From the UHGV virus genome UHGV-0309502: a DNA stretch of 35,430 bases. One strand, written 5' to 3'. This DNA is from a virus. Shown one piece after another: positions 1-35,430 of this stretch. Numbering within the stretch: the first letter of the stretch is position 1; each line of letters starts with the position of its first letter. The notes under the pieces were generated by a model. It ran no database searches. It worked only from the letters and a program-made list of their open reading frames with translations, and was not told the DNA's origin. The position numbers and the translations under genes were made by a program.

Positions 1-2
1 TG

Positions 3-137
3 CGCCGCATGGATGAAATCATGGAGGCTCTTGATAATCGTTCGTCAATGGATTGGTGTGTTGCTGTCCATGATATGAATGCAGGGTTTGATGAAAAGAT
101 TTTGTTCCCCTCATCAGTTGAAAGCACAGCAGGATAA
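3..137 (+). CDS. hypothetical protein, 3'-partial (C-terminal 44 codons)
   Basis: Only frame open from the window edge; TAA at 135-137; terminator hairpin follows. Frame is continuous with the 5'-partial ORF at 35304..35430 if the window ends are joined. Confidence 0.4.
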   Translation, partial: RRMDEIMEALDNRSSMDWCVAVHDMNAGFDEKILFPSSVESTAG

Positions 138-172
138 GGACCCAGCAAATATACACAACCTATAAAACACTA

Positions 173-198
173 AAGCGCCTCAGGGGCGCTTTTTGTTT
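173..198 (+). terminator. rho-independent terminator
   Basis: Stem AAGCGCC/GGCGCTT with 5-nt loop, followed by a T-run, about 35 nt after the stop at 137. Confidence 0.55.
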
Positions 199-596
199 GC
201 ACAAAAGTGCACAAATTTGCACAATTTTTTTGAACGACTTTTTACCCTTCCGGCCCGCATGGCGGCTGGATCCGTCAAGGATCCGTGCGTGCACAAAAAA
301 ACGCGCTTTTTCTGCGCGCAGGTGACGGGGGAACAGCCCGCGTTTCAGGGGGTAAATAGCATTCCCTGAACGATGTCGCAGAGACACAACAGAATGGCCA
401 TATTTCTCACGCTGAGCATGAAAAAGGCGTGAGGGCTTTTGATTTGATGGGGTGAAAGGTAAGGCCGTCAAAATCGCACTGAGGCAGCGAGAACATACAG
501 TCAACGCGGTGGAATTGCGTAAGAGTCTGACCGTCGATGGTGGCGATAAACTGGAAGGCGTCGTGAAATTATCTGATTGATACAGGAGCTGGAGAG

Positions 597-623
597 CCGG
601 GGCATAAATTTTTTATGCCCCGG
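597..623. terminator. perfect palindromic hairpin, bidirectional terminator-like
   Basis: CCGGGGCATAAA-ttt-TTTATGCCCCGG, 12-bp perfect arms, A/T-rich on both sides; about 100 bp upstream of the ORF at 724. Confidence 0.4.
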
Positions 624-723
624 CGAAGCAGCAGACAAGCGAAGCGCGTCAGCGATACGGCACCTTGCCGACCATACTTCATAAGTGCAAAATACGAGCA
701 AAGAAATCAATGGAGGCTGTCTT

Positions 724-1248
724 ATGGTCATTAATTACAAGCAGTTAAGAGAAAAACGGGAGCAGGTAAAGGAGAGCTTTCGCCGCAATGAAGATCTGAC
801 CCCGCTTGTACGCCTTGCCCAGGGCATTGTTGATGCTTATGAAATCTCGCTGGAGCTGCCATCACAGACCTGGACAGATAGCGACGGTAATCGCCAGCAT
901 TACGTTTCATGCGGACTGGAAGCAGCCGAAGGATTTCGCAGAATGCCTTTATCCCAGATCCCTGCCGCTACCCCCAAAGCATGGGGCAGCAATGATGAGC
1001 GAAAACTGACTTTTAGTATTGAAACGGTGGTTGACGACACACCTGGCGAAGTCGCGTTCGTACACACTCCTGTTTCGATCGCAATGTATAACGATGAAAT
1101 ACAGGTTCGCGTTAATAATAATATCGTGCCACTTAAAGAAGGTAATTCACCCTACACCACCGTTTGTGAAGCCATTCAATATTACGTTCTCTCTGAAATT
1201 GATAATCTCAAGCCTGACGGCACCCAGAAAATGGTTCAACTCTGGTAA
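724..1248 (+). CDS. hypothetical protein (174 aa), cargo gene beside the portal gene
   Basis: ORF-track frame 685..1248; ATG at 724 is preceded by GGAGG at 7-nt spacing; ends in a hairpin terminator; no family recognised by eye. Confidence 0.55.
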   Translation: MVINYKQLREKREQVKESFRRNEDLTPLVRLAQGIVDAYEISLELPSQTWTDSDGNRQHYVSCGLEAAEGFRRMPLSQIPAATPKAWGSNDERKLTFSIETVVDDTPGEVAFVHTPVSIAMYNDEIQVRVNNNIVPLKEGNSPYTTVCEAIQYYVLSEIDNLKPDGTQKMVQLW

Positions 1249-34330: not shown

Positions 34331-34375
34331 AGCGCGCATAAAACAGGCAAAAACGGGATTTCAGAATCCCGTAAA
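34278..34375 (+). repeat. two copies of a 26-bp palindromic element (AAACGGGATT-caca/caga-AATCCCGTAAA)
   Basis: Copies at 34278-34303 (inside the A 3' end) and 34350-34375 (intergenic, upstream of the ParM-like ORF). Confidence 0.6.
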
Positions 34376-34406
34376 CGATTAATTAATCAACATAAGGAAA
34401 AGCGAC

Positions 34407-34808
34407 ATGAAAATTTGTATCGATGACGGCTCCACCAACATCAAGCTGGCATGGACTGAGAACGGCGAACGCCGCAACGCCATCAGCCCGAACAGCTTCA
34501 AGTCGGAATGGTCTGCGCCGTTCGGTGGCACGCAGCCCGCGAACTACATGCTTGATGGCGTGCGCTATGGTTTTGATCCGGTCAGCGATCGCTTTGTCCA
34601 GACAACTGACACGCAATACCAGTACAGCGATGTGAATGTCATTGCCATTCATCACGCGCTGGTCAAATCAGGCATCACGCCACAGGAGGTGGATGTGGTT
34701 GTCACCCTGCCACTGAGCGAGTATTTCGACACAAACGCACAGCCGGACATAGCCAACATCAACCGCAAAAAAAGCCCAGGATTCCCGGGGCGGTTCAGAG
34801 GAGAGTGA
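34407..34808 (+). pseudogene. ParM/StbA-family actin-like ATPase, N-terminal fragment only (133 codons)
   Basis: MKICIDDGSTNIKLAW...ISPNSFK.EW...QYSDVNV.A.HHAL closely parallels the recalled R1 ParM N-terminus; similarity ends after NRKK and the frame stops far short of the ~320 aa of a full ParM. Confidence 0.55.
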
Positions 34809-34810
34809 GA

Positions 34811-35302
34811 ATGCAAATTTCACCGGTTACTCTTCGTGTTGCGAAGGCGTTTATATCCAGACATCACCGACACAATAAACCCCCGGTGGGGCATAAATTC
34901 AGCATTGGTCTGAGAAATGATGCCGGAGAATTGATAGGTGTGGCGACAGCCGGTAGACCTGTTGCACGACATTTGGACGATGGATTAACGCTTGAAGTAA
35001 ATCGCACATGTACCACAGGAGAACGCAACGCTAACAGCGCACTTTATGGTGCTGTCTGGCGGGCAGCAAAGGCTATGGGTTATCAACGTTGTATTACGTA
35101 CACCCAGGCAGATGAATCAGGAGCATCTCTCCGCGCAGCTGGTTTTGTTCGTGTGAAAGAGCTTCCTCCAAGAAAAAGCTGGGCGGAATCAAGCGTCGCC
35201 CTGCGGAGTAAACGCGATCCGGTCGGAAACGGTGGTGTTCCTCGTGTGCTCTGGGAAATCAGGAGAATGAGTACCACTGGCATTCGCATCAAAGGAGAGT
35301 GA
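34811..35302 (+). CDS. hypothetical protein (163 aa)
   Basis: ORF frame 34805..35302; ATG at 34811 after AGAGGAGAG; basic His-rich N-terminus (ISRHHRHNKPP). May belong to the Mom/GNAT-like acyltransferase-fold group sometimes annotated XF1762 family; that is an unverified recollection. Confidence 0.45.
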   Translation: MQISPVTLRVAKAFISRHHRHNKPPVGHKFSIGLRNDAGELIGVATAGRPVARHLDDGLTLEVNRTCTTGERNANSALYGAVWRAAKAMGYQRCITYTQADESGASLRAAGFVRVKELPPRKSWAESSVALRSKRDPVGNGGVPRVLWEIRRMSTTGIRIKGE

Positions 35303-35303
35303 T

Positions 35304-35430
35304 ATGGCAACTTTGACAAAAAAAGAACAAGCATGGTTGAGCGAATTACAGGACGTTCTTGATCGCTGCCCATCACCGAAAAAAATTGGTTTTTACACCA
35401 TTGGCGATAAAAGCATTTACCTGTATGACC
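35304..35430 (+). CDS. hypothetical protein, 5'-partial (N-terminal 42 codons)
   Basis: ATG at 35304; runs off the window end; continues in frame into 3..137 if the ends are joined (about 87 aa in total). Confidence 0.4.
   Translation, partial: MATLTKKEQAWLSELQDVLDRCPSPKKIGFYTIGDKSIYLYD

What the first reader, a model, noticed from the sequence alone, without database searches (positions are those of the whole stretch)
1..35430. Window ends are in-frame continuous: a complete genome unit in circular permutation
The ORF starting at 35304 runs off the end with one leftover base. Joining it to position 1 gives codon CTG and continues in the only open frame at the window start, ending at TAA 135-137. 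The gene content is one copy of every P2 module, with ogr-att-int contiguous as in a circular or replicating phage genome rather than at prophage ends. This points to a circular assembly, a tandem prophage unit, or a phage-plasmid-like replicon.
Basis: partly seen in the sequence, partly recalled or inferred. Interest (0 to 1): 0.45.

Follow-up and report, generated by a model that had tools for sequence, protein, structure and literature searches.

The report
Complete P88-like phage genome, circularly permuted
The window is one complete copy of a common P2-family (P88-like) temperate E. coli phage, written out as a closed circle that was cut open at an arbitrary point inside a small gene; this is an ordinary consequence of how such genomes are assembled, not a new biological feature.

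Summary
The ORF starting at 35304 runs off the window end and continues in frame from position 1 to TAA 135-137. In-frame continuity alone is weak evidence: 31% of random 45-codon reads of this window have no stop. The decisive evidence comes from relatives. The joined 87-aa product is 100% identical to WP_000224220.1 in two chromosomal prophages and matches phrog_1714 over its full length. The 3-kb end|start join is contiguous at 99.9% identity in E. coli 190693. The window has no terminal overlap, no internal duplication, no host DNA and no complete tRNA. It carries one attP: a 124-bp core (26251-26374) made of the last 55 nt of tRNA-Leu leuZ plus 69 nt downstream, with phage arms on both sides. 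Rotated, the window is collinear with leuZ-integrated P88-like prophages. The most likely source is an assembly of excised, replicating or cos-annealed phage DNA, cut arbitrarily in the gpA-cos-gpQ accessory hotspot. A tandem prophage is unlikely: 0 of 5,426 complete genomes show this attP join. So is a phage-plasmid: ParM is truncated, ParR is absent, and int and attP are intact. Low interest.

The parts
35304..35430 (+). 5' part (42 codons + 1 nt) of the 87-aa gene that spans the window ends
   Evidence: Once joined to 1-137, the product is 100% identical to WP_000224220.1 and matches phrog_1714 over 1-87/87.
1..137 (+). 3' part (2 nt + 44 codons + TAA) of the same gene
34811..35302 (+). Mom-like / XF1762-family gene, accessory cargo of the gpA-cos-gpQ hotspot. 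Its stop lies 1 nt before the ATG of the junction gene.
   Evidence: phrog_1384, Mom-like DNA modification protein, E 1.5e-42. Pfam Mom scores 23 bits, below the 27.1 cut-off. RefSeq calls it an XF1762 family protein.
34407..34808 (+). Truncated ParM (N-terminal domain only, 133 aa against 319 aa in relatives). Homology to intact parM ends at 34772.
   Evidence: Pfam StbA_N 1-123. Alignment to L002 stops at 34772. RefSeq marks the equivalent gene as a pseudogene missing its C-terminus.
31508..34330 (+). gpA-type replication endonuclease (rolling-circle initiator)
   Evidence: Pfam Phage_GPA, E 3.9e-131.
198..652 (.). Conserved non-coding block between the hotspot cargo and Q, and the probable cos region. 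The linear record of phage P88_4B11 begins at the equivalent of 243. The exact cos cut was not determined.
   Evidence: Matches to P88-like phages start at 173-245. The end and start of LR595891 align contiguously across 242|243. No match to the P2 or 186 cos 19-mers.
724..1248 (+). 174-aa accessory gene inserted between the cos block and Q
   Evidence: phrog_5091, E 1.4e-67. Absent from prophage L002, where window 653-1287 has no counterpart.
1263..4060 (-). Portal (Q, 1263-2309) and large terminase (P, 2309-4060)
   Evidence: Pfam Phage_portal, Terminase_5, Terminase_6N and Terminase_6C.
4215..15993 (+). Late genes: scaffold O, capsid N, small terminase M, L, X, holin, M15 endolysin, spanins, NanS-like esterase (9015-10895), R, S, V, W, J, I and tail fibre H
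   Evidence: Pfam. Called genes of near-identical loci. RefSeq annotation of prophages 97-98% identical.
15512..17797 (.). Invertible tail-fibre segment (15512-17134, flanked by 229-nt inverted repeats) and serine DNA invertase (17198-17797)
   Evidence: The same segment is 99.6% identical but inverted in L001.
17824..23409 (-). Tail genes U, T (tape measure), E/E', FII (tube) and FI (sheath)
23567..24979 (+). gpD (23567-24676) and the Ogr/Delta late activator (24719-24979)
   Evidence: Pfam Phage_GPD and Ogr_Delta.
25024..25311 (+). hok/sok-type toxin-antitoxin locus (hok ORF 25171-25311)
   Evidence: Rfam sok, 47.9 bits, E 3e-9, below the gathering score of 59. Hok/Gef annotation and Pfam HOK_GEF (weak) on relatives.
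26251..26374 (.). attP core: 124 bp found at both attL and attR of the leuZ-integrated relative. It consists of the 3'-terminal 55 nt of tRNA-Leu (leuZ, minus strand) plus 69 nt downstream, and is flanked here by phage arms on both sides.
   Evidence: No complete tRNA in the window.
26481..27482 (-). Tyrosine integrase
   Evidence: phrog_1, E 1.4e-76. 100% identical over the int arm in many E. coli prophages.
28531..29437 (.). Immunity switch: HTH repressor (28531-28935, minus strand) and Cox-like excisionase/repressor (29234-29437, plus strand)
   Evidence: phrog_8 and phrog_4 for the repressor, phrog_575 (Cox-like) E 1.2e-27.

Best explanation
The window is a single, complete genome of a P88-like temperate phage of E. 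coli (family Peduoviridae, close to Xuanwuvirus). It is recorded in its circular, excised topology and linearised at an arbitrary base inside an 87-aa accessory gene of the gpA-cos-gpQ hotspot.

How the topology arises (established P2-family biology, inferred here and not shown):
- Int and Cox recombine attL x attR at leuZ and regenerate attP.
- gpA nicks the origin and drives rolling-circle replication that yields monomeric circles.
- Terminase (gpP/gpM) cuts cos to give linear virion DNA with cohesive ends, which re-anneal after injection.

Only in the circular molecule are both attP and cos closed, which is what the window shows. An assembler that finds reads across both joints returns a circle with no natural start, so the cut landed inside a gene. 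The sequence shows a closed attP, a closed cos region, an exact unit length and a gapless join. The source of the DNA (induced culture, virion preparation or metagenome) and the assembler's role are inferred.
For: - **Join:** contiguous and gapless in a chromosomal prophage, 3,000/3,000 nt at 99.9%, with window 35430|1 mapping to L001 21500|21501.
- **Joined protein:** 100% identical to WP_000224220.1 and a full-length phrog_1714 match.
- **Single unit:** no terminal overlap and no duplicated module.
- **Collinearity:** the rotated window is collinear with a prophage from attL to attR, in the order yecA|int...A...Q...ogr-hok|leuZ.
- **attP:** a single attP with a 124-bp core and both phage arms, and no full tRNA.
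- **Gene set:** a full P2-type gene set.
- **Size:** 35.4 kb lies within the range of the family, 33-37 kb.
- **Precedents:** LR595891 P88_4B11 is a linear record with ogr-att-int internal. NZ_CP148288.1 is a 34,461-bp circular 'plasmid' that is a P88-like phage.
- **Location of the cut:** it falls in the hotspot between gpA and gpQ described by Rousset et al. 2022 (PMC9122126).
Against: - Nothing outside the window can be seen, so circularity rests on the exact unit length and the closed joints, not on reads.
- The source record was not found in any collection searched.
- The cos cut site was not located. The P2 and 186 cos 19-mers are absent.
Confidence: 0.85

Rival explanations
1. The window is one repeat unit cut out of a tandem (head-to-tail) double prophage at leuZ. 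The joint between the two copies is an attP, and the A-cos-Q region is contiguous.
For: A tandem array would also show attP internal and the hotspot contiguous. The sequence alone cannot exclude it. The attP core is identical to the host site.
Against: An arbitrary window from an array would not be exactly one unit long to the base, with no gap or overlap. None of 5,426 complete E. coli genomes has this attP join contiguous: every int-side match stops at the core boundary, query position about 852. There is no host DNA and no full leuZ in the window.
Confidence: 0.04
2. The element is maintained as a stable extrachromosomal phage-plasmid. Its circular form would be the resident prophage state, not a transient excised or replicative form.
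For: P88-like phages normally encode ParM plus a ParR-like partition protein just downstream of gpA. One relative with intact ParM/ParR is deposited as a circular 34.5-kb plasmid.
Against: In this window ParM is truncated to 133 aa (StbA_N only) and the ParR-like gene is absent, replaced by a Mom-like cassette. The integrase, Cox and a perfect leuZ attP are intact. The closest relatives, at 98-99.5% identity, are all integrated at leuZ. ParM-like proteins in integrated prophages can serve viral DNA replication and transport instead of plasmid inheritance (CGP3 AlpC, PMC4446434). The replication gene is the P2 gpA rolling-circle type, which is not known to support plasmid maintenance (established knowledge).
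Confidence: 0.06
3. The apparent continuity is a chance or artefactual join, for example a chimeric assembly or a deliberately rotated linear prophage record.
For: An open frame across a random join is not rare here, at 31%.
Against: The join reproduces known contiguous DNA at 99.9% identity over 3 kb, and it reproduces a known protein exactly. A chimera would not do this. A rotated prophage record would carry attL/attR remnants or host bases at the old ends, yet the attP region is a clean single core.
Confidence: 0.02

Closest known systems
Escherichia phage P88 and P88_4B11 (Xuanwuvirus, Peduoviridae; KP063541/NC_026014, LR595891)
   Same: Same gene order and modules. About 94-96% nucleotide identity over the shared parts: 78% of window 1-25000, and 42-61% of 23000-35430. 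The conserved cos-proximal block is shared. P88_4B11 is likewise recorded with ogr-att-int internal.
   Different: - Different integrase/immunity region and different hotspot cargo.
- P88 and 4B11 have intact ParM/ParR, whereas the window has truncated ParM plus the Mom-like gene and the 87-aa gene.
- The window carries a NanS-like esterase that 4B11 lacks.
- Its start point is arbitrary, not at a genome end.
leuZ-integrated P88-like prophages of E. coli (e.g. NZ_AP042682 OkiPb01713, NC_011748 strain 55989, NZ_CP048934 strain 190693)
   Same: 97-99.5% identical over 87% of the 25-kb query. The int arm is 100% identical. They share the same attachment core, and strain 190693 has the same ParM'/Mom-like/87-aa hotspot arrangement.
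   Different: They are integrated: int and ogr lie at opposite ends, the att core is duplicated and leuZ is intact. The window is the circular permutation of this map with a single attP.
Phage P2 (NC_001895)
   Same: Same architecture: cos, then Q and P, then O N M L ... H G, then FI ... D, then ogr-attP-int-C-cox ... A, then accessory genes, then cos. Same Pfam families for Q, P, O, N, M, D, Ogr and A.
   Different: - No detectable cos sequence identity.
- The tail operon FI-U is inverted relative to P2.
- The window has an invertible fibre segment with an invertase, a 940-aa A protein (761 aa in P2) and a tRNA-gene attachment site.
- old and tin are replaced by other cargo.
Circular 'plasmid' records that are P88-like phages (NZ_CP148288.1 pZ1323PEC0009-2, 34,461 bp)
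   Same: A unit-length circular record with int and ogr/hok adjacent across the record origin, and 96% identity over 74% of window 1-25000.
   Different: It has intact ParM/ParR, different cargo at att (Dam methylase and Com), and a different integrase/immunity region.

Membership tests
P2-like phages (Peduoviridae) | P2-type virion gene set in P2 order (portal Q, terminase P, scaffold O, P2-family capsid N, small terminase M, L, X, baseplate V W J I, fibre H, sheath FI, tube FII, E, T, U, D) | tested here: met
   Pfam hits above the curated cut-offs. Called genes of near-identical loci. RefSeq annotations of 97-98% identical prophages.
P2-like phages (Peduoviridae) | gpA rolling-circle replication initiator and Ogr/Delta zinc-finger late activator | tested here: met
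   Phage_GPA, E 3.9e-131. Ogr_Delta, E 5e-14.
P2-like phages (Peduoviridae) | cos site with cohesive ends next to gene Q | tested here: inconclusive
   The P2 and 186 19-mers are absent, best match 14-15 of 19 and located elsewhere. A conserved non-coding block at 198-652 lies next to Q, and the P88_4B11 record terminus maps to 242|243. The cut site needs virion end sequencing.
Genus Xuanwuvirus (P88-like) | Genome-wide nucleotide similarity to the exemplars at genus level (about 70% of the whole genome by ICTV practice; this threshold is from my own knowledge) | tested here: inconclusive
   Coverage x identity is about 0.73-0.74 for window 1-25000, but only about 0.40-0.58 for 23000-35430. 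That gives roughly 0.63-0.69 overall, which is borderline. A whole-genome tool such as VIRIDIC was not available.
Excised / circular form of a temperate phage genome | A single attP with phage DNA on both sides of the core, and no attL/attR or host flanks | tested here: met
   The 124-bp core at 26251-26374 matches both attL and attR of L002. The left arm continues into hok-ogr and the right arm into int. No full tRNA.
Excised / circular form of a temperate phage genome | Sequence ends join without gap or overlap into DNA known to be contiguous | tested here: met
Excised / circular form of a temperate phage genome | Reads or molecules that physically span both the end|start join and attP | not testable with these tools
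   No read data, and the source record was not found.
Phage-plasmid | Intact plasmid-type maintenance functions (partition system and/or plasmid replicon) | tested here: not met
   ParM is reduced to StbA_N (133 aa) and the ParR-like gene is missing. The only replication gene is gpA.
Phage-plasmid | Relatives are habitually found as extrachromosomal replicons and not integrated | tested here: not met
   86 genomes carry it integrated with at least 80% coverage. In the junction search, 3,387 places were chromosomal and 118 on plasmids. The attP join was contiguous in 0 of 5,426 genomes. One circular 'plasmid' record exists.
Tandem prophage array | Host-flanked attL ... attP ... attR with two or more phage units | not testable with these tools
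   Only one unit is visible. There is no precedent in complete genomes.

The most novel reading that the evidence does not exclude
The circle could be a resident state and not a transient one. On this reading, some P88-like Peduoviridae, which unusually encode a ParM/ParR-type partition module next to gpA, can persist as low-copy episomes, and this genome was captured in that state despite its damaged ParM. That would add a P2-family lineage to the phage-plasmids.
Probability: 0.04. Interest if true: 0.45.

Novelty: already known. Interest (0 to 1): 0.08.

Why it matters
The main value is for bookkeeping. The window should be treated as a whole, closed phage genome. That means 35304-35430 + 1-137 is one gene and not two fragments. 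The tRNA-Leu piece is an attP core and not a broken host gene. No host context is to be expected on either side. Biologically it is one more mosaic member of a very common family of E. coli prophages; about 36% of complete genomes (1,976 of 5,426) match the 3-kb sequence spanning the join. It tells us nothing new about P2-family circularisation, integration or packaging. The accessory content may interest specialists in prophage cargo, but it is separate from this finding. That content includes a Mom-like gene replacing ParM/ParR in the defence hotspot, a NanS-like esterase, hok/sok, and an invertible fibre segment seen in both orientations.

Tried and rejected
1. **P2/186 cos 19-mers and the 390-nt P2 cos region against the window.** No meaningful match, so cos could not be placed by homology. 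My by-eye candidate GGTGACGGGGGAACAGCCC (321-339), which by my hand count matches the P2 cos 19-mer at 13 of 19 positions, is no better than background; the best scores elsewhere in the window are 13-15 of 19.
2. **Looking for the source record.** I found no identical record in INPHARED phages, PLSDB, RefSeq E. coli, IMG/VR, JGI metagenomes, GTDB genomes or the gene-position index.
3. **The 113 IMG/VR hits to the junction 44-mer.** I first took them as 113 P88-like contexts. In fact 95 of them have no P2-like A, Q or P gene nearby, because the 87-aa gene is an independently mobile moron. These hits support the gene, not the phage context.
4. **PADLOC on the hotspot proteins.** No known defence family.
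5. **Rfam at gathering thresholds.** Nothing over the whole window.
6. **In-frame continuity as evidence.** Rejected as insufficient on its own.
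Full report
**Observation**

The ATG at 35304-35306 opens a frame that reaches the window end after 42 codons, with one base (C) left over. With T1 and G2 this base forms CTG, and the frame runs on to TAA at 135-137. The other two forward frames at the window start are closed within about 80 nt.

Continuity of a frame is weak evidence by itself. In this densely coding window, 31% of randomly placed 45-codon reads contain no stop.

**What makes the join real**

- The joined product (87 aa) is identical, residue for residue, to the annotated protein WP_000224220.1 in two chromosomal prophages: E. 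coli 190693 (L001 21374-21637) and OkiPb01713 (L002 15201-15464).
- It matches phrog_1714 from position 1 to 87 of 87, E 1e-50.
- The 264-nt gene is intact in nine phage records, including the P88-like phage PhiR44_2 at 99.6%.
- A 3-kb query made of the last 1,500 and first 1,500 bases aligns as one piece, fully covered at 99.9% identity, to the 190693 chromosome. Window 35430 maps to locus position 21500 and window 1 to 21501, so there is neither gap nor overlap.
- The window has no terminal redundancy. Its only internal repeats are short tail-fibre repeats and one pair of inverted repeats.

**What the window is**

It is a P2-family phage of the P88 type.

- Pfam identifies the portal, the large terminase (Terminase_5/6N/6C), the GPO scaffold, the P2-family capsid, the small terminase, the sheath, the tape measure, GPD, Ogr/Delta and a serine invertase.
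- It also identifies a gpA replication endonuclease.
- PHROGs identify a tyrosine integrase, an HTH repressor and a Cox-like excisionase.
- The nearest phage records are 500465-2, PhiR44_2, 520873, P88_4B11 and P88. They show about 94-95% identity over 78-80% of the first 25 kb and less over the early region.
- Integrated prophages in E. coli chromosomes are closer, at 98-98.5% identity over 87% of a 25-kb query.

**Topology**

In OkiPb01713 the related prophage lies between yecA and the glyW-cysT-leuZ tRNA operon. Its order is int ... A ... parM/parR ... 87-aa gene ... cos region ... Q P ... ogr hok | leuZ.

Window 26251-26374 (124 bp) matches both ends of that prophage. It comprises the 3'-terminal 55 nt of the 87-nt tRNA-Leu plus 69 nt downstream. 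In the window this core is present once. The hok-ogr arm lies on one side and the int arm on the other, and ARAGORN finds no complete tRNA. That is an attP, not an attL or attR.

Rotated to start at the core, the window is collinear with the prophage from attL to attR. The length is exactly one unit. This is the circular topology of the genome. The cut at 35430|1 is arbitrary, being neither cos nor att.

**Where the cut falls**

The ends lie in the accessory region between gpA and gpQ next to cos. Rousset et al. (2022, PMC9122126) describe this region as a hotspot of variable, often anti-phage, cargo in P2-like prophages.

In this window the hotspot contains, in order:
- a ParM gene truncated after its N-terminal domain (homology to intact parM ends at 34772);
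- a Mom-like/XF1762 gene (phrog_1384, E 1.5e-42);
- the 87-aa gene;
- a conserved non-coding block (198-652);
- a 174-aa gene (phrog_5091) that OkiPb01713 lacks.

None of these proteins hits PADLOC.

**cos**

The P2 and 186 cohesive-end sequences are not present. The block 198-652 is where similarity to all P88-like phages resumes. The linear record of P88_4B11 ends and begins at the equivalent of 242|243. cos is probably in this block, but I could not determine the cut.

**Source of the circle**

*Circular assembly.* The best explanation is an assembly of excised, replicating or cos-annealed phage DNA that closed on itself. P2-family biology makes monomeric circles the normal intracellular form. 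This is established knowledge: Int/Cox excision, gpA rolling-circle replication, and terminase cutting of circles at cos. Comparable records exist. One is a 34,461-bp circular 'plasmid' that is a P88-like phage. Another is P88_4B11. A third is an IMG/VR contig, 34,888 bp long, with the same attP join at 97% identity.

*Tandem prophage.* This cannot be excluded from sequence alone. However, it would not yield an exact unit, and none of 5,426 complete E. coli genomes has this attP join contiguous.

*Phage-plasmid.* This reading is suggested by the ParM/ParR module that P88-like phages carry. Here that module is broken, while int, Cox and attP are intact and the closest relatives are integrated. 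ParM-like proteins of integrated prophages can also serve viral DNA replication (PMC4446434).

*Source record.* I did not find it in any collection.

**Verdict**

The finding is ordinary: a complete, circularly permuted genome of a very common prophage family. About 36% of complete E. coli genomes (1,976 of 5,426) match the 3-kb sequence spanning the join.

The practical consequences are these. The two terminal ORF fragments are one gene. The tRNA-Leu fragment is the attP core. No host flanks should be expected.

Noticed in passing
window 15512-17797: A 1.62-kb segment bounded by 229-nt inverted repeats (90% complementary) lies next to a serine DNA invertase (17198-17797). The same segment is 99.6% identical but in the opposite orientation in the otherwise collinear prophage of E. 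coli 190693 (L001). This is an invertible tail-fibre segment caught in both states. Copies 99% identical occur on P1-like plasmids of 92-94 kb.
   Followed up: partly
window 14437-16614: In the window's orientation the fibre gene H (518 aa) ends at 15993 with no co-oriented tail-fibre assembly gene. The only Caudo_TAP gene (16000-16614) is on the opposite strand. The identical arrangement recurs in 19 NCBI contigs. I did not examine whether this fibre variant needs no chaperone or is an 'off' state.
   Followed up: no
window 34407-35302: The ParM/ParR partition module typical of P88-like phages has been replaced, from nt 34772 on, by a Mom-like (XF1762 family) gene. ParM keeps only its N-terminal domain. 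The Mom-like gene is 97-99% identical to copies in unrelated phages such as Kapi1, TL-2011a and Wanchaivirus.
   Followed up: partly
window 35304-35430 + 1-137; IMG/VR loci L006-L118: The 87-aa junction gene (phrog_1714, function unknown) is mobile on its own. In 95 of 113 IMG/VR contigs that carry the exact 44-mer, no P2-like A, Q or P gene is nearby. The gene also occurs in lambdoid phages and in phage records of 99-138 kb.
   Followed up: partly
window 9015-10895: A 626-aa DUF1737-SASA-DUF6645 protein, a NanS-like sialate O-acetylesterase, is inserted between the lysis genes and gpR. It is about 86% identical at the DNA level to copies in Stx-converting phages, and it is absent from P88_4B11.
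   Followed up: no
window 25024-25311 and about 26000-26125: A hok/sok type I toxin-antitoxin locus lies between ogr and attP (Rfam sok 47.9 bits, E 3e-9, below the gathering score; 46-aa Hok ORF). A second, degenerate copy of its leader, without a hok ORF, lies about 1 kb downstream (69% mean column identity over the whole pairwise alignment, visibly higher over the leader).
   Followed up: partly
window 25500-25895 and 27488-28515: This low-GC stretch (40-45% against 53% overall) flanks attP and int. It carries a 131-aa ORF (phrog_27544) on the ogr side, and a DUF2511 protein plus a 216-aa membrane protein (phrog_5825) between int and the repressor. These look like lysogenic-conversion morons of unknown function.
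   Followed up: no
window 724-1248: A 174-aa gene (phrog_5091, no Pfam or PADLOC hit) is inserted between the cos-proximal block and Q. It is present in E. coli 190693 but absent from OkiPb01713.
   Followed up: no
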